From: a virus
Lineage: Duplodnaviria; Heunggongvirae; Uroviricota; Caudoviricetes
Strand: one strand, 5' to 3'
IMG/VR virus record: IMGVR_UViG_2579779052_000008
Location: 1-42,184 of that record
DNA length: 42,184 nucleotides
A program made the position numbers. Below are positions 1 through 6,000 of the stretch, in pieces; the stretch's first letter is position 1, and each line of letters begins with the position of its first letter.

Positions 1-3000
1 ATGGAAACAGAAAAAGGCAAACGCGGCCTTTTCTTCATTTTCAGAGTAACTCCCGCCAGTTGCGAGCAAAAAAGCCGCTACGCTTTAGTTATACGTGCTA
101 ATTCAAGAGAAGAGACCATGGACAACAACAAAATTGATCAACACAGCGACGAAATTGAAGTTGAGAGCGAAGAAAAAGAGCGCGGCAAAAAAATAGAAAT
201 AGATGAAGACCGACTCCCCTCCCGGGCGATGGCAATTCATGAGCATATCCGCCAGGATGGTGAAAAAGAGCTGGAACGCGACGCAATGGCGCTACTGTGG
301 TCAGCCATTGCGGCGGGGCTGTCGATGGGCGCTTCGCTACTGGCAAAAGGGATATTTCATGTCGAACTGGAAGGCGTGCCGGGCAGCTTCTTGCTGGAGA
401 ATCTCGGTTATACCTTTGGTTTTATTATCGTCATTATGGCCCGCCAGCAATTATTTACCGAAAACACCGTGACTGCGGTACTACCCGTCATGCAAAAACC
501 GACAATGAGCAACGTTGGCTTACTTATGCGGTTATGGGGCGTCGTGCTGCTGGGTAATATTCTCGGGACAGGTATTGCGGCGTGGGCATTTGAATATATG
601 CCAATCTTCAATGAAGAAACTCGCGATGCATTTGTCAAAATCGGCATGGATGTGATGAAGAACACCCCCAGCGAGATGTTTGCCAACGCGATCATTTCCG
701 GCTGGCTGATCGCCACTATGGTATGGATGTTTCCTGCAGCGGGTGCGGCAAAGATTGTGGTGATTATATTGATGACCTGGCTTATTGCCCTGGGTGACAC
801 CACTCACATCGTTGTCGGTTCTGTTGAAATCCTCTATCTGGTGTTTAACGGTACGCTGCACTGGAGCGATTTCATCTGGCCCTTCGCACTACCTACTTTA
901 GCGGGGAACATCTGCGGCGGCACCTTTATCTTCGCGTTAATGAGTCATGCACAGATCCGTAACGACATGAGCAACAAGCGCAAAGCAGAAGCACGCCAAA
1001 AAGCAGAACGTGCGGAAAACATTAAGAAAAATGATAAAAACCCGGCATAAATGGCGAGGGTTTAAGCAATCGAGCGGCAGCGTACTTACCCCGCAGTCCA
1101 TTAGCGGGTATACTCATGCCGCATTGTCCTCTTAGTTAAATGGATATAACGAGCCCCTCCTAAGGGCTAATTGCAGGTTCGATTCCTGCAGGGGACACTT
1201 GTTTCGAGTTCGCCGCAATCCGTAATAGTCCGCCGAATCCCGCCAGTATCAAGCCTTTCATGACATCCCTGTTCGCAGTAGTTCGCCTCAGACCGTTGAC
1301 AACCGCGCCTTTTGGCGGGTAAAAAACGAGTAAAACAACTTTACCCACCGGAATTTTACCCATGCTCACTGTTAAGCAGATAGAGGCCGCCAAGCCTAAA
1401 GACAAACCCTACCGAATGCTCGACAGAAATGGCCTGTACCTGTACGTTCCGGTGTCTGGCAAAAAGGTGTGGCAATTGCGCTATAAGCTCGACGGCAAAG
1501 AGAAGGTGCTGACAGTGGGTAAATACCCTCTCATGTCATTGCAGGAAGCTAGGGATAAAGCGTGGACCGCAAGGAAGGATGTTTCTGTCGGGGTCGATCC
1601 GGTTAAGGCCAAAAAGTTGTCTGTGAAGGACAATTCATTTTCAGCTATTTATCATGAATGGTACGACCACAAGCGGCAGGTTTGGTCAGAAGGATATGCG
1701 GATGAACTTTCTCGCATGTTCCGTGACGATATTCTGCCAATGATCGGATATCTGGAAATACAGGACATTGAGCCGATGCAGATACTGGAGGTGATCCGGA
1801 GGTTTGAAGAACGTGGGGCAATGGAGAGGGCAAATAAAGCCAGAAGAAGATGTGGCGAGGTTTTCAGGTATGCGATCGTTACAGGAAGGGCCAAATATAA
1901 TCCGGCTCCTGACCTTGCTGATGCCATGAAGGGATATAGAAAGAAAAACTACCCTTTCCTTCCTGCAGATCAGATACCAGCATTCAATAACGCGCTATCT
2001 GGCTTTTCCGGGAGTATTATTTCGAAAATTGCCACACAGGTTTTGCAATATACAGCGCTGCGTACAAAAGAACTCCGTTCTATGCAATGGGAAAACGTCG
2101 ACTTTGAAAACAGGATGATAACCATCGACGAAGAGGTAATGAAAGGGCGCCGTGTTCATGTAGTTCCGATGTCAGATCAGGTAATAAATCTTCTGAATAC
2201 TCTCAAACCGATCACAAGCCCTGTTTCCTCTTTTGTGTTCGCCGGGCGGAATGATAAGAAAAAGCCCATCAGCGAGAATGCCGTATTATTAGTTATCCGA
2301 CAGATTGGCTATGAGGGGCTGGCGAGCGGGCATGGATTCCGCCACCAGTTCAGCACAATAATGAATGAGCATGGCTGGCCAGCGGACGCGATTGAAAAAC
2401 AACTCGCGCACACCGCCAGCGGGTCAATACGCGGAATTTACAACCATGCTCAGTATCTGGATAAACGCAGAGAGATGATGCAGTGGTGGGCTGATTACAT
2501 CGATGGTCGTGCAGGCCAGTAAGCCATTACGCAAACTCTTCCAGGGTCAGGTTCCATCTGCGCCATCTCCTGAGATGCCAAAATCTGCGAGCAGCTATCC
2601 AGAAATGAACACTGGCCGTTTACTCAATCCGCAAGGTATCGCACCATAACTGCGGACATACTTGTTGTAGTTACGGTGCGCACCACTCTTTCATTGTTAA
2701 ACCGCCAGGCTATCGCTTCGCACATCACAAATGATGTGCGTCACAACGCCGGCGACAGTGACATCGTCCAGAGCCTCACCTTCAATCGCTTCACCGTCAT
2801 CGGTGATCAGCGCAGCACCCATCCATTTTGCGAACTGGCTACGACCGTCATACAGCGCCAGCACCATATCACCATCGCCTGGTTGCAGTGACCGATCAAT
2901 AACCGCATAGCCGATGTTCGTCTCTATCACCTGGCAGTTTGCATCCACCCGGCACAGTATTTCAGGCGTAATAGTCCGGTCGGCATAGTCTGCCGCAGGA

Positions 3001-6000
3001 GAAGGAAATCCCATCAGCGAACCCTCCCCATGTTGCGCTGTATCCAGTACCGGTTTTCACTGACGTCAGTTGTTCTGTCTGCAAAGTCTGGCTGATAGCG
3101 CTCTATCCAGCCGTTCGCATCCTTCTGGCTGAAGTGCCAGTTACGCTGGCTGAGTTCGCGGATAAAGTCGTCCGTGCGCAGGCACTGAAACCCTTTAGGG
3201 TTAAGTTGGACTGCGGCCACAAAGGCGGCGTTAATGTCTGGTTTACGCGGCATGATTTGCACCCTTAATAACTGTATATGCATACAGTATAATATTAATA
3301 AATCGATCTGTGCAATCAACCGCAGCGGGGCAGGCTTCGTTTCGTTTGGGCGCTTTTCAGTGACGAAATTGCCTCGCCGTGTACAGCAAGGCATTATCTA
3401 TATGATTATGAAATGGAATGTTGAATAATTCTCCGTAGCTTATTTATCGCCCTCCGCGGGAGCGATACGACAGGAGGTGATTCTATAGCTGTCTCCGGAA
3501 CGGGTATTTCTTCTTCTGTTTTCGCTTCCGCTTCAGCTCCTGGGTGCTTTCTGTCCAGGTGAAACATCAGACAGCAACTGTCAGGAAGATATTTATCGAT
3601 CAGCTTTCTTGTGTATTCATTTTCTGTATAAGGAACCCAGGGAGGGTTAATTGACTTAAGCAACGCAGAATCTTTTTCTTCATCACCTGTCAGATACTGA
3701 TATATATTTTCATTTTGAGGCGTAGCCCAAGGGTGTCCTTCTATATTGCCTTCTATTAAATCATCAACACAAACCTCATCAATTTCTTCATGCAGCACAT
3801 ACATTCTATATGCCATGTATGAGATCCATTCGAAGGATGCGCCTCTAAATCTGCATGCGGCATGTACAAATCTATTTGTGAAAATATCACCATCTTCTGT
3901 AAGATGGTTTATAAAACCATTAAATTTATCTTTATTATAGATGCACAGATTTTCATACCAGCCATAAGATCTGGAAAAATGATTTCTCATGTCAAACGAC
4001 GATATAACACTACGGATAGAGTCGTTTTGTATTTTAGTCATTATTTCATGATTGTATGCCGCAAGGCTATATCTGTAGCATTCGTTTGAAACGTGCTTAC
4101 TCAGGGACTGCAAGAGATTTGACTGTCTGAAAAGTAATATTTCACTATCCAAAACAACAACATCATCAAAACCAAAAGAAAATACTTTATCCACACCTGA
4201 CAGTTTTTTGAGATTAATTATCCCACACCTTCCATCACGAAAGAAAATGGTAGCATCTGAATCATATTTTGCATTTTTTAGATTATTATTATATTCAGTC
4301 ACCGCTTCTTCCACATCAAAGCAATGAACTCGTTTTTTTAATCTATCAGACAAAGAATCAATTAAAAGCGCCAGCTCTGAAGATTCATCCTTAGAGCTGG
4401 CCGCAAAATAAATATCAGGAATACCATCAAAAGTACAATTTTCCTCAACGCTTTTAAGAAAGCGGGCATTAAGGGGTATATGTTTGCTGTATGTGGGAAT
4501 TAAAATCGCTATGCTCATTTGCTATGTGCCATTCAATTGACATTTAGCATACGATACTACACAGCAAATGATGCATACAAGGAATTATGGTGGCGGAAGT
4601 GTTCCTGTATAGTCTGGCAGTGTGATTCTTATCGCAATCGGCATTCTGTAATAAAACTCATAATACAGATCGCTGGAGAAGTCCACGAGAACCATTGTCT
4701 CATCCTCCTGCGGACCCTGTGCCATATAGATGATTTTTCCATCATCATCAAGTTTTGCGTAATAATCTGTCATCAGAATTCATACCCCATTAACACAAGG
4801 TTATATGAAACACTGGCGAGTTGAGCTTGCCAGTATATTTGTCGGGTATTACCAAAAACAGGGCATTTAACATAGCTGGTTGTACTTACCGTTCCTCCTG
4901 TTCCTGAAGCGCCTACTGTAACTCGTCTTGATCCGATTAGTGCGCTTGATGGTGAAATGACAAACACACCCGTCGTATCTACTGATATCAGGCTGGCAGT
5001 AGCTGTCATCTCGATGATGTTTGTATTTAATGGTATCGATGTGATTGTTAATGCTGCAAGTGCCCCTGGAGCACCATTACCTGTCAGTATCGTTGAATCG
5101 AGAATTGATACACTTCTGCCAGCCAAAACACACTGAGCAAACTGAGAGCTGCTTGTTGGTAAAACGCCTACAAGCGCAGATGCGGTGTAACCAGATGGCA
5201 TATTTGCACCGCCATAAACCTCCGGCACAACAGCAGAAGATGCGTTGACAGCCAGAAGCGCGGCAGTGCTCGTCGTTGGGTTGTAAATAACGTAGAGGCC
5301 TACGAACCCGTTTGCCGGAACGGTGCCGGTATCCATGCCCCCTGCGCCAGTAGTCGCGATGTTAACCGACAGGTTAAGGTTTGCCAGGCGATACTGTGCG
5401 CCTCCTAAAGCTGTTTCAACAATCAACTCATCAGCGTTGAATGTTGCAGTGGCCGAAGCAGATGCGATATTCATGCGCGCGTTGCGTGATGTGCCCACCA
5501 CAGACACGCCGTTTGCCGCTTCTTTCAAACCAAGGTTTTCGAGAGCCGTTTTCACCGTGCCATCCGATTTGATATCACCAAACGGATTCTTGCGGCTTAA
5601 CAGCAGCGCACGAAGCGCGGTAAGCAGCTGGTCGTGCCGCCCCTTCTCCAGGCTGGCACCGGATGCCTCCACAACGCTGCAAAGCTCCTCCTGCAACATG
5701 TCAAAGTAGTCATCATCCAGATCGGTGGCAGGTGTGCCGGTCTTGGGGTTACCACGGGTAAAACCGTTCTTACCCGCGCCGAACTTATCCTTCTGCGCGG
5801 TTTTCGTGTCTATACGATGCATGGATTACTCCGGATATTTAAAAATTACGTAGGTATGCGAAGGGCAGAGTTTGTTAAGCACGCACTCGACAACGGTGTC
5901 GCCCCAGATACGCAGTGCGGAATCACAGGGATCGCCACATGTCATCCAGGTGGTGTTGGTGGCGGCTGGCATGTTGACCTGCCAGTAATACCGCCATTCC

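What the first reader, a model, noticed from the sequence alone, without database searches (positions are those of the whole stretch)
2697..3290. LexA-box-controlled bicistronic operon: 80-aa unknown protein plus a pre-truncated UmuD'-like protein with no UmuC partner
A canonical SOS box (CTGTATATGCATACAG, 3272-3287) sits over the promoter of two translationally coupled minus-strand genes. The second product begins at the GFPSPAADY motif, which in UmuD lies immediately after the RecA-stimulated cleavage site, so it is born already activated, like P1 HumD. The usual GDSM catalytic serine motif is not evident and no polymerase gene is adjacent. The 80-aa partner has no family I recognise. A DNA-damage-induced module carried in the integrase-proximal cargo bay could alter host mutagenesis, checkpoint control or prophage induction.
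Basis: partly seen in the sequence, partly recalled or inferred. Interest (0 to 1): 0.75.

Follow-up and report, generated by a model that had tools for sequence, protein, structure and literature searches.

The report
SOS-switched UmuD'-mimic operon on a prophage
A prophage carries a DNA-damage-switched pair of small genes, a catalytically dead, ready-cleaved copy of the mutagenesis factor UmuD' and an uncharacterised 79-residue winged-helix partner; the same pair is widespread on other phages and on IncX3 resistance plasmids, and nobody has tested what it does.

Summary
A near-consensus LexA box (3272-3287), the only CTGT-N8-ACAG site in 42 kb, overlaps the predicted -10 of a minus-strand operon. 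The operon encodes a 79-aa protein (3253-3014, not 80 aa) and a 105-aa UmuD'-like protein (3014-2697), joined by a TGATG overlap.

Comparison with 160+ related loci shows a conserved module, not a gene fragment. The LexA box is kept in 157 of 167 loci. It moves to about -38 of the UmuD'-like gene when the 79-aa gene is absent. The stop/start overlap is kept in 57 of 60 pairs, and dN/dS is 0.12-0.17. All 120 listed homologues start MGFPSPAxDY.

The 105-aa protein has the LexA/UmuD' fold but lacks the Ser60 loop and Lys97. It fails the Pfam S24 and NCBIfam HumD thresholds, so it is a shortened offshoot of the P1 HumD / N15 gp26 kind. The 79-aa partner is a winged-helix protein with no known family. 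It also precedes true HumD-family genes in phage HK140 and, behind the same LexA box, in about 950 conjugative (mostly IncX3) plasmids.

The most likely function is an SOS-induced UmuD' surrogate acting on host UmuC/Pol V. This is inferred and untested. It is a new variant of a known kind, of moderate interest.

The parts
3270..3289 (-). LexA (SOS) box. Gene-strand 20-mer TACTGTATGCATATACAGTT; core CTGT-N8-ACAG at 3272-3287.
   Evidence: Read. It is the only such site in the window. A canonical box at the same relative position is present in 80/87 and 77/80 homologous loci. The identical core occurs upstream of the IncX3 plasmid homologue.
3286..3314 (-). Predicted sigma-70 promoter: -35 TGCACA (3314-3309), 17-nt spacer, -10 TATACT (3291-3286). 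The -10 overlaps the LexA box.
   Evidence: Consensus scan, 9 of 12 matches. This is a prediction only.
3260..3266 (-). Shine-Dalgarno-like AAGGGTG, 6 nt upstream of the p79 ATG.
   Evidence: Sequence. G-rich SD-like motifs sit at the same place in the homologues listed.
3014..3253 (-). p79: a 79-aa winged-helix protein of unknown function (phrog_3893).
2697..3014 (-). p105: a 105-aa catalytically inactive, 'born-cleaved' UmuD'-like protein (phrog_3469). Its ATG overlaps the p79 stop (TGATG).
   Evidence: ORF. PHROG E-value 1.1e-45. HumD model 38.9 bits against a cut-off of 120, and no Pfam S24 hit. Alignment to UmuD. AF2 pLDDT 86. Best Foldseek matches are LexA CTD and UmuD'. 878 homologue clusters of 104-109 aa. 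dN/dS 0.12.
2635..2684 (-). Long hairpin starting 13 nt after the p105 stop, between the convergent p105 and integrase genes. A possible terminator, but with no U tract.
   Evidence: RNA fold (whole-region z-score not significant). The terminator scan found none. It is weak evidence and is included only as a candidate 3' boundary.

Best explanation
This is an SOS-regulon accessory operon carried by mobile elements. In an undamaged lysogen, host LexA sits on the box that overlaps the -10 and keeps the operon off. After DNA damage, RecA* triggers LexA self-cleavage and the operon is transcribed. The 1-nt stop/start overlap should couple translation of the two proteins, so they are made together.

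Once the initiator Met is removed, p105 begins G-F-P-S-P-A. That is exactly the N-terminus that host UmuD acquires only after slow RecA*-dependent cleavage. p105 keeps the S24 beta-barrel, the N-terminal arm motif and the C-terminal strands. It has discarded the serine loop and the lysine, which UmuD' no longer needs.

I infer that p105 acts at the UmuD' position of the host Pol V pathway. It would dimerise and engage host UmuC (and/or UmuD or UmuD') without waiting for RecA* processing. The element's own damaged DNA would then get early translesion synthesis, a self-supplied form of Weigle reactivation, as P1 HumD can do experimentally.

p79, a winged-helix protein that is almost always encoded immediately upstream, is most likely a dedicated partner of the UmuD'-like protein, either stabilising it or targeting it.

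Shown: the anatomy, the conservation, the fold and the loss of catalytic residues. Inferred: LexA binding, the p79-p105 complex, the UmuC interaction, and whether the effect is pro- or anti-mutagenic.
For: LexA control:
- The near-consensus box overlaps the predicted -10.
- It is conserved in position in 157 of 167 homologous loci.
- It tracks the first gene of the unit. It lies about -275 from the UmuD'-like ATG when p79 is present and about -38 when p79 is absent.
- P1 humD has an annotated LexA site at the same distance, and N15 gene 26 has a box there too.

Real, selected genes:
- 878 clusters of 104-109 aa.
- p79 is always 79 aa.
- dN/dS is 0.17 and 0.12.

UmuD' mimicry:
- All 120 listed homologues start MGFPSPAxDY or a near variant.
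- F3, P4, P6 and D9 are invariant.
- The fold matches UmuD' and LexA CTD, with TM about 0.6 and probability 1.0.
- The C-terminal strand VxGVVTH aligns with VFGVVIH of UmuD.

Link to functional HumD:
- The same p79 gene, with the same coupling and box, precedes proteins that pass the NCBIfam HumD cut-off in HK140 (222 bits) and in an IncC/IncFIB plasmid (168 bits). The IncX3 copies read here are cut short by IS26 and were not scored.
- The P1 record states that HumD 'functionally complements E. coli UmuD'' (McLenigan et al. 1999, cited in PMC4713147).

Partnership:
- 73 of 80 p79 loci have a UmuD'-like gene directly downstream.
- The 1-nt overlap is present in 57 of 60 pairs.

SOS context:
- A DinI gene is divergent from the same LexA box in 54 of 80 p79 loci.
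- This parallels the DinI-like ImpC plus UmuD-like ImpA of impCAB (from my own knowledge).
Against: - No experiment exists for this subfamily or for p79. Nothing relevant was found in the held literature.
- p105 is only weakly similar to UmuD (E about 1e-3 against 8gmt) and scores far below the HumD cut-off.
- The UmuD residues that contact RecA (Y52, residue 54, F94, D91, E93; PMC9926225) are not conserved. They align with V29, E31, S59, D56 and R58. Pol V activation requires RecA, so a short variant may not support translesion synthesis.
- Each gene can occur without the other: 25 of 87 loci lack p79, and 6 of 80 loci lack the UmuD'-like gene. They are therefore not an obligate complex.
- Nothing here shows binding to UmuC.
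Confidence: 0.4

Rival explanations
1. Decoy or SOS damper. p105 is a non-functional UmuD' look-alike that heterodimerises with host UmuD or UmuD', or occupies UmuC. Together with phage DinI it suppresses Pol V mutagenesis or the UmuDC checkpoint, so that the induced phage or incoming plasmid replicates faithfully and without delay.
For: p105 lacks the Ser loop, Lys97 and the RecA-contact residues that HumD-type relatives keep, but it retains the N-terminal arm and C-terminal strands. An invariant Cys21 aligns with UmuD L44, which I recall lying at the dimer interface (for the invariance; the interface assignment is from my own knowledge). It is frequently co-regulated with DinI, a known inhibitor of UmuD processing. 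The module's presence on conjugative plasmids fits the anti-SOS logic of plasmid genes such as psiB.
Against: The closest characterised relative, HumD, promotes rather than blocks mutagenesis. Catalytic residues are dispensable for UmuD' function, so their loss does not imply loss of translesion-synthesis activity. No interaction data exist.
Confidence: 0.25
2. LexA-controlled antirepressor module, as with 186 Tum, Gifsy GfoA/GftA and N15 AntC. p79 or the S24-fold p105 binds a CI-type repressor, for example through its S24-like C-terminal domain, and induces this prophage or co-resident prophages.
For: The regulatory logic and genomic neighbourhood match the Gifsy dinI-antirepressor operon: LexA box, tail-fibre-proximal position, DinI next door (PMC3121763). 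p79 is the size of GfoA/GftA, which that paper puts at about half of the 146-aa Tum. p105 shares a fold with CI C-terminal domains. Fels-1 shows that an antirepressor can coexist with a cleavable repressor.
Against: This prophage's CI has an intact HTH plus S24 domain with a QAG site, a GHSM serine and an FKK lysine. The mEp390 repressor is annotated as LexA family. The module also sits on IncX3 plasmids, and no CI-type repressor is annotated in the 6-7 kb stretches read around it there. N15 has a second LexA box followed by a separate small helical ORF, probably antC, which is unrelated to p79; its HumD-like gene 26 stands alone. tblastn with p79 found nothing in the half of the Gifsy-2 record that I fetched.
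Confidence: 0.12
3. Split LexA-like regulator. p79 (a winged-helix domain) and p105 (an S24-fold dimerisation domain) are the two halves of a LexA/UmuDAb-like protein, encoded as separate genes broken exactly at the cleavage site. They assemble non-covalently on DNA.
For: p79 has the same broad fold class (winged helix) and about the same length as the part of LexA before its cleavage site, 79 against 84 residues (LexA features from my own knowledge; for p79). The gene boundary falls exactly at the Gly that follows the cleavage site. The coupling is tight. Acinetobacter pairs UmuDAb with the small co-repressor DdrR (title and abstract of PMC11332147, seen; the paper was not read).
Confidence: 0.08
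4. Decayed remnant of a umuDC operon, or chance ORFs.
For: The product is short, no Pfam hit was found, and no UmuC is present.
Against: There are 878 clusters of near-identical length. The start, the coupling and the LexA box are all conserved. dN/dS is 0.12-0.17. Both AF2 folds are confident.
Confidence: 0.01

Closest known systems
P1 HumD / N15 gp26 / phiKO2 gp23 (NCBIfam NF051876, HumD family)
   Same: Carried on a mobile element. Starts at the post-cleavage MGFPSPA motif. LexA box just upstream. No UmuC gene on the element. Shares the S24 fold.
   Different: p105 is 105 aa rather than 127-129 aa. It scores 38.9 bits against a cut-off of 120. It lacks the 12-residue segment aligned with the UmuD Ser60 loop and a further 5 residues, and it lacks the RecA-contact residues that HumD-type proteins keep. 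P1 and N15 have no p79 gene. Only HumD has experimental support.
E. coli UmuD' (the processed subunit of Pol V)
   Same: Identical mature N-terminus GFPSPAADY, the same beta-barrel fold and a similar C-terminal strand. Both are SOS-regulated.
   Different: p105 is not made by RecA*-mediated cleavage and has no Ser60/Lys97 dyad. Overall sequence identity in structure-based alignments is about 20-24%. It is not in an operon with umuC.
impCAB operon of plasmid TP110 (DinI-like ImpC, UmuD-like ImpA, UmuC-like ImpB; from my own knowledge)
   Same: A mobile-element SOS operon that combines a small accessory protein with a UmuD homologue. In many relatives of this locus a DinI gene shares the LexA box.
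   Different: No polymerase subunit is present. The small co-transcribed protein is a winged-helix protein (p79), not a DinI homologue. The UmuD homologue is pre-truncated. DinI is absent from this window.
LexA-controlled antirepressor loci (186 Tum; Gifsy dinI-gfoA-irsA; N15 AntC)
   Same: A LexA box in front of small genes outside the immunity region, near the tail-fibre end and often next to dinI (PMC3121763).
   Different: The cognate CI here is of the self-cleaving type. No sequence relation was found to the probable N15 antC ORF. The module also occurs on plasmids.
IncX3 plasmid backbone 'umuD' (the 'delta-umuD' landmark in blaNDM-5 and blaSHV-12 contexts)
   Same: The same module: resolvase gene, then LexA box TACTGTATATGCATACAGCT with the same core as this window, then a p79 homologue (38% identity), then an MGFPSPATDY UmuD'-like gene.
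   Different: The plasmid UmuD'-like gene is HumD-length; the intact 127-aa copy on an IncC/IncFIB plasmid passes the HumD cut-off. In the two IncX3 plasmids read here it is cut by IS26. The p79 homologue is annotated as 'hypothetical protein' or 'DNA polymerase V'.

Membership tests
Peptidase S24 / LexA-UmuD superfamily (Pfam PF00717) | Sequence match to the family model above the gathering score | tested here: not met
   No Pfam family at E <= 1 for p105. As a positive control, the window's CI scores 91.8 bits on PF00717.
Peptidase S24 / LexA-UmuD superfamily (Pfam PF00717) | S24 beta-barrel fold | tested here: met
   AF2 model with pLDDT 86. The top Foldseek matches are LexA CTD, UmuD' (1umu, 1ay9) and UmuD-RecA (8gmt), with probability 1.0 and TM 0.55-0.62.
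Peptidase S24 / LexA-UmuD superfamily (Pfam PF00717) | Ser nucleophile and Lys general base (UmuD S60 and K97) | tested here: not met
   A 12-residue deletion removes the SGDSM loop. K97 aligns with Ala62 (A in 115 of 120). The neighbouring K63 is K in only 85 of 120.
HumD family (NCBIfam NF051876, equivalog) | Score at or above the curated cut-off of 120 bits | tested here: not met
   p105 scores 38.9 bits. Controls: HK140 gp28 scores 221.8 and the 127-aa plasmid protein scores 168.3.
HumD family (NCBIfam NF051876, equivalog) | Protein begins at the post-cleavage Gly (MGFPSPA...), so it needs no RecA-mediated processing | tested here: met
   Window sequence. All 120 listed homologues share this start.
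HumD family (NCBIfam NF051876, equivalog) | Functional replacement of UmuD' in UmuC-dependent SOS mutagenesis | not testable with these tools
   Known only for P1 HumD (record note; reference cited).
LexA (SOS) regulon | CTGT-N8-ACAG operator close to the consensus, overlapping the promoter | tested here: met
   17 of 20 positions match the consensus. The site overlaps the predicted -10 and is unique in the window.
LexA (SOS) regulon | Operator conserved in orthologous promoters | tested here: met
   Present in 80/87 and 77/80 loci. It shifts with the first gene of the unit. It is also present in HK140, in an IncX3 plasmid, and upstream of the HumD-type genes of P1 and N15.
LexA (SOS) regulon | LexA binding and damage-inducible transcription | not testable with these tools
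   Requires EMSA, a reporter fusion or RNA-seq.
PHROG 3469 (UmuD-like) and PHROG 3893 (unknown function) | Full-length match to the family profile | tested here: met
   p105: E 1.1e-45 over positions 1-102 of 106. p79: E 4.6e-39 over positions 1-78 of 79.
LexA-controlled antirepressors (Tum / GfoA / AntC type) | The cognate prophage repressor is not self-cleaving and needs an antirepressor | tested here: not met
   The window CI has an HTH plus Peptidase_S24 domain with a QAG site, a GHSM serine and an FKK lysine.
LexA-controlled antirepressors (Tum / GfoA / AntC type) | Sequence relation to a known antirepressor | tested here: inconclusive
   No similarity to the probable N15 antC ORF. tblastn found nothing in the fetched half of Gifsy-2.
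Winged-helix DNA-binding proteins (p79) | H-E-H-H-E-E winged-helix topology | tested here: met
Winged-helix DNA-binding proteins (p79) | DNA binding | not testable with these tools
   Many winged-helix domains mediate protein-protein contacts instead. No Pfam or NCBIfam family was matched.

The most novel reading that the evidence does not exclude
p79 and the pre-cleaved, catalytically dead UmuD' mimic form a dedicated two-protein device. Phages and IncX3-type resistance plasmids switch it on through LexA to take over or rewire the host's Pol V / UmuD node. One form of this would be a non-covalent 'split LexA-like' complex of a winged-helix subunit and an S24 subunit. The device would change mutation rates, or the fate of the element, during antibiotic-induced SOS. 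That would be a new class of mobile-element SOS effector distinct from HumD, DinI and PsiB.
Probability: 0.15. Interest if true: 0.75.

Novelty: new variant of a known kind. Interest (0 to 1): 0.45.

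Why it matters
Mobile elements that carry a ready-made UmuD' but no polymerase have been known since P1 HumD, yet their purpose is unclear. This locus adds three things:

- a large, conserved, shortened and catalytically dead subfamily (878 clusters);
- a dedicated, uncharacterised winged-helix partner that is often missed by annotation;
- the same LexA-switched pair on the backbone of IncX3 plasmids, which spread NDM-5 and SHV-12.

If the pair changes translesion synthesis or SOS signalling, it bears on damage-induced mutagenesis. 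It would also bear on Weigle-type reactivation of induced prophages and on the evolution of resistance under SOS-inducing antibiotics. Simple genetics in umuD and umuC backgrounds could test this.

Tried and rejected
- PADLOC, Pfam and NCBIfam scans of both proteins and of the neighbouring 370-aa ORF gave no defence system or named family.
- Antirepressor lead, Gifsy-2: I looked for gftA. The fetched half holds a LexA box and a truncated dinI but no p79-like ORF. The antirepressor sequences appear only in figures, so no direct comparison was possible.
- Antirepressor lead, N15: gene 26 is HumD-like with its own box. A second box at 39564 precedes an unannotated helical ORF, probably antC, which is unrelated to p79. 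The AntC and HumD primary papers are not held.
- Split-LexA idea: hhalign of the p79 profile against LexA gave no signal. The same was true against P1 Lxr.
- The profile search of 1.84 billion representatives with p79 found only about 180 small relatives. The few long hits are read-through or frameshift merges with the adjacent UmuD'-like gene, not informative fusions.
- An Acinetobacter phage hit turned out to be an ordinary umuD-umuC pair, not UmuDAb.
- Megablast of the locus against 5,426 complete E. coli genomes and against phages matched only the first 213 bases of the query, window 2600-2812 (the 3' end of p105 and the sequence downstream). This exact allele is therefore rare, although the identical protein is recorded on 40 contigs.
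UmuD agrees with the PDB alignments. UmuC matches an annotated phage UmuC at E 1e-101.

Full report
**Setting**

The window is an enterobacterial chromosome segment, and the identical p105 protein is recorded from E. coli. From left to right it holds:

- a formate/nitrite-transporter-family gene (1-1050);
- tRNA-Arg(CCU) at 1126-1198;
- an integrase (1362-2522, +) with Arm-DNA-bind_3 and Phage_integrase domains;
- a complete prophage with Mu-type baseplate genes, tail sheath, TerL, DnaB, cII and cI.

The finding lies between the 3' end of the integrase gene and an AT-rich orphan ORF next to the tail-fibre genes.

**Check of the observation**

- The minus strand reads TACTGTATGCATATACAGTT at 3289-3270, with the core CTGT-N8-ACAG at 3272-3287.
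- It is the only such site in 42 kb.
- A promoter-like pair, TGCACA-17-TATACT, ends inside the box.
- An SD-like AAGGGTG precedes the ATG at 3253.
- The first ORF is 79 aa (3253-3014).
- The second is 105 aa (3014-2697). It starts MGFPSPAADY, and its ATG shares a base with the first gene's TGA.
- The window holds no UmuC or DinI homologue.
- The finding is therefore accurate, except that the partner is 79 aa rather than 80.

**Is it more than chance?**

A single box in one window is not significant (0.49 expected). The comparative evidence settles the question.

I fetched 80 viral contigs through the 105-aa protein. I added six contigs carrying the identical protein and phage mEp390. Of these 87 loci, 80 have a canonical box upstream. 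Where the 79-aa gene is present (62 loci), the box lies 271-281 nt before the UmuD'-like ATG in nearly all of them. That places it 12-20 nt before the p79 ATG, with an SD between. Where p79 is absent (25 loci), the box lies 36-41 nt before the UmuD'-like ATG.

A second set of 80 loci was fetched through p79. Of these, 77 have the box.

The half-sites are kept while the spacer varies, as expected of a functional operator. The stop/start overlap (TAATG or TGATG) is present in 57 of 60 pairs, and p79 is 79 aa in all but one pair. Median dN/dS is 0.17 for p79 and 0.12 for p105. There are 878 clusters at 90% identity, and the 120 listed are almost all 104-109 aa.

**The 105-aa protein**

It matches phrog_3469 'UmuD-like' at E 1e-45. 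It has no Pfam hit, and it scores only 38.9 bits on the NCBIfam HumD model (cut-off 120) and 32 bits on the UmuD subfamily model (cut-off 110).

Alignment with UmuD shows four things:

- an identical GFPSPAADY motif;
- a 12-residue deletion that removes the SGDSM serine loop;
- a further 5-residue deletion;
- a conserved C-terminal strand.

UmuD K97 aligns with Ala62, which is Ala in 115 of 120 homologues. The adjacent K63 is not conserved, being K in 85, T in 25 and R in 10. The protein therefore cannot be an S24 peptidase.

The AF2 model (pLDDT 86) has a low-confidence N-terminal arm and a beta-barrel. Its best matches are LexA C-terminal domains and UmuD'.

The cryo-EM study of UmuD on RecA filaments identifies Y52, residue 54, F94, D91 and E93 as RecA contacts (PMC9926225). 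In p105 these align with V29, E31, S59, D56 and R58. UmuD-style docking in the RecA groove is therefore not obviously retained.

Family-specific invariants are Cys21 and an acidic loop, consensus DGEAIEGEALDD.

**The 79-aa protein**

It matches phrog_3893, of unknown function. Nothing reached threshold in Pfam, NCBIfam, PADLOC or PDB sequences.

A profile search of 1.84 billion representatives returns only about 180 relatives, nearly all about 79 aa. The few longer hits are gene-call merges with the downstream UmuD'-like gene.

**Relatives that clarify what kind of thing this is**

- In mEp390, HK140 and HK225 the unit lies between the tail-fibre genes and attP/int. It is divergent from a DinI gene, with the LexA box in the short shared spacer. 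DinI is divergent in 54 of 80 p79 loci. It is absent from this window.
- In HK140 the gene after p79 is 129 aa, begins MGFPSPATDY, has lost Ser60 (ATHY in place of GDSM) and keeps Lys97. It passes the HumD cut-off at 222 bits.
- P1 humD and N15 gene 26 belong to the same family. They are monocistronic and have a LexA box at about -39. The P1 record notes that HumD complements UmuD'.
- p79 homologues (about 38% identity) occur in 1,032 plasmid records. Of these, 947 are conjugative, and the records sampled are mostly IncX3-sized (43-54 kb).
- In the two IncX3 plasmids I read, the order is resolvase gene, then TACTGTATATGCATACAGCT (the same core as here), then the p79 homologue, then an MGFPSPATDY protein that IS26 truncates. 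This is the 'delta-umuD' landmark familiar from IncX3 literature.
- An intact 127-aa copy on an IncC/IncFIB plasmid passes the HumD cut-off at 168 bits. It has Thr and Met at the catalytic positions.

The kind is therefore known: LexA-controlled, born-cleaved UmuD' homologues on mobile elements that have no UmuC. This window holds a shortened subfamily of it, together with a conserved and so far undescribed partner gene.

**How it most likely works**

Shown: a conserved operator over the promoter, conserved translational coupling, conserved mimicry of the UmuD' N-terminus, an S24 fold without the catalytic dyad, and a winged-helix partner.

Inferred:

- LexA represses the operon until DNA damage.
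- Both proteins are then made together.
- Met removal exposes the same GFPSP terminus that UmuD gains by RecA*-dependent cleavage.
- The protein acts at the UmuD' position of the Pol V pathway, as P1 HumD does. The element's damaged DNA then gets early translesion synthesis.
- p79 is its partner.

Loss of the catalytic residues fits this reading, because UmuD' no longer needs them (from my own knowledge of the umuD' S60A work).

The direction of the effect is uncertain, because the RecA-contact residues are not kept. A decoy that poisons Pol V or the UmuD checkpoint, possibly working with DinI, is the main rival.

**Rivals considered**

*Antirepressor.* The locus resembles the LexA-controlled dinI-antirepressor operon of Gifsy prophages in position and regulation (PMC3121763). 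Three results argue against that reading:

- This prophage's CI has an intact cleavage site and Ser/Lys dyad, and the mEp390 repressor is annotated as LexA family.
- The module also sits on IncX3 plasmids, and no CI-type repressor is annotated in the stretches read around it.
- N15 has a second LexA box with its own small ORF, distinct from gene 26 and unrelated to p79.

*Split LexA-like regulator.* A winged-helix half and an S24 half, broken at the cleavage site, is an attractive picture. It has no sequence support.

*Defence system.* Nothing supports this.

**Novelty and score**

The UmuD'-like gene is already labelled in PHROGs and in some phage records. HumD biology dates from 1999. In the held literature I found no description of the short catalytically dead subfamily, of p79, or of their shared presence on lambdoid phages and IncX3 plasmids.

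p79 is often left unannotated: in mEp390 and Eeyore, small ORFs on the opposite strand are annotated in its place. It is also sometimes mislabelled 'DNA polymerase V'.

I rate this a new variant of a known kind, with interest 0.45.

Noticed in passing
window 3406-4518 (-): A 370-aa ORF in a strongly AT-rich island (GC 0.35-0.40 against about 0.55 in the flanks). It has no significant hit in Pfam, PHROGs, NCBIfam or PADLOC. It sits between the SOS operon and the tail-fibre genes, at an argW-type tRNA-Arg(CCU) prophage site; I recall related prophages carrying O-antigen-modification cargo in the equivalent region. It is an orphan cargo gene.
   Followed up: partly
window 34836-35882 (+): A 348-aa gene starts 26 nt after the cI stop, on the same strand. 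This is the position that rexAB occupies in lambda. It matches only phrog_6191, of unknown function. It is a candidate for a lysogen-expressed exclusion or defence gene.
   Followed up: partly
window 36366-37042 (+): An N-like antiterminator (phrog_271) is followed directly by a Nun-like transcription termination factor (phrog_5632, E 3e-70). In HK022, Nun excludes lambda.
   Followed up: no
window 34361-34443 (+): ARAGORN calls a tRNA-Ala(CGC) inside the cI coding sequence. It is probably a false positive. Plausible phage tRNAs (Thr and Asn) lie at 26462-26617.
   Followed up: no
L004 (ENA metagenome scaffold), 6493-8103: In this contig the integrase gene is followed by the phage's early-left genes (Ead/Ea22, SSB, Rad52-family, Kil, CIII) rather than by the tRNA and the formate/nitrite-transporter gene. 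That is the excised or circular junction. The phage appears to be active, and attP lies just upstream of the int start.
   Followed up: partly
L001 (mEp390) 3762-3998; L091 (Eeyore) 3174-3410: The p79 gene is not annotated in these phage records. Small ORFs on the opposite strand are annotated there instead. In Eeyore the UmuD-like CDS is also annotated 42 nt short of its MGFPSP start.
   Followed up: yes
L012, L070, L088 (IMG/VR), about 45 nt upstream of the p79 ATG: In three loci the LexA box is replaced by CCGGTAACGGGTATCCCTACCGCGAC. This looks like the end of an inserted element or a recombination scar, and it would uncouple the operon from SOS control.
   Followed up: no
window 2600-2812: This stretch is the 3' end of p105 plus the hairpin region. 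It is 94-96% identical to Klebsiella phages and to six complete E. coli genomes, whereas the rest of the operon has no near match. This marks a mosaic boundary inside the gene.
   Followed up: partly
L099 (N15) 39564-39831: N15 has a second canonical LexA box, CTGTGTTTATATACAG. It is followed by an unannotated ORF of 75-79 aa. This is probably the published antirepressor gene antC, which is missing from the RefSeq annotation.
   Followed up: partly
L095 (plasmid pSAL-19-0623_NDM) 3400-3500; L093/L094 (IncX3): ISKox3 has inserted into the LexA box of the plasmid module, leaving half a box. In the IncX3 plasmids read here, IS26 truncates the UmuD'-like gene. Many clinical plasmids may therefore carry a deregulated or broken copy.
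   Followed up: partly
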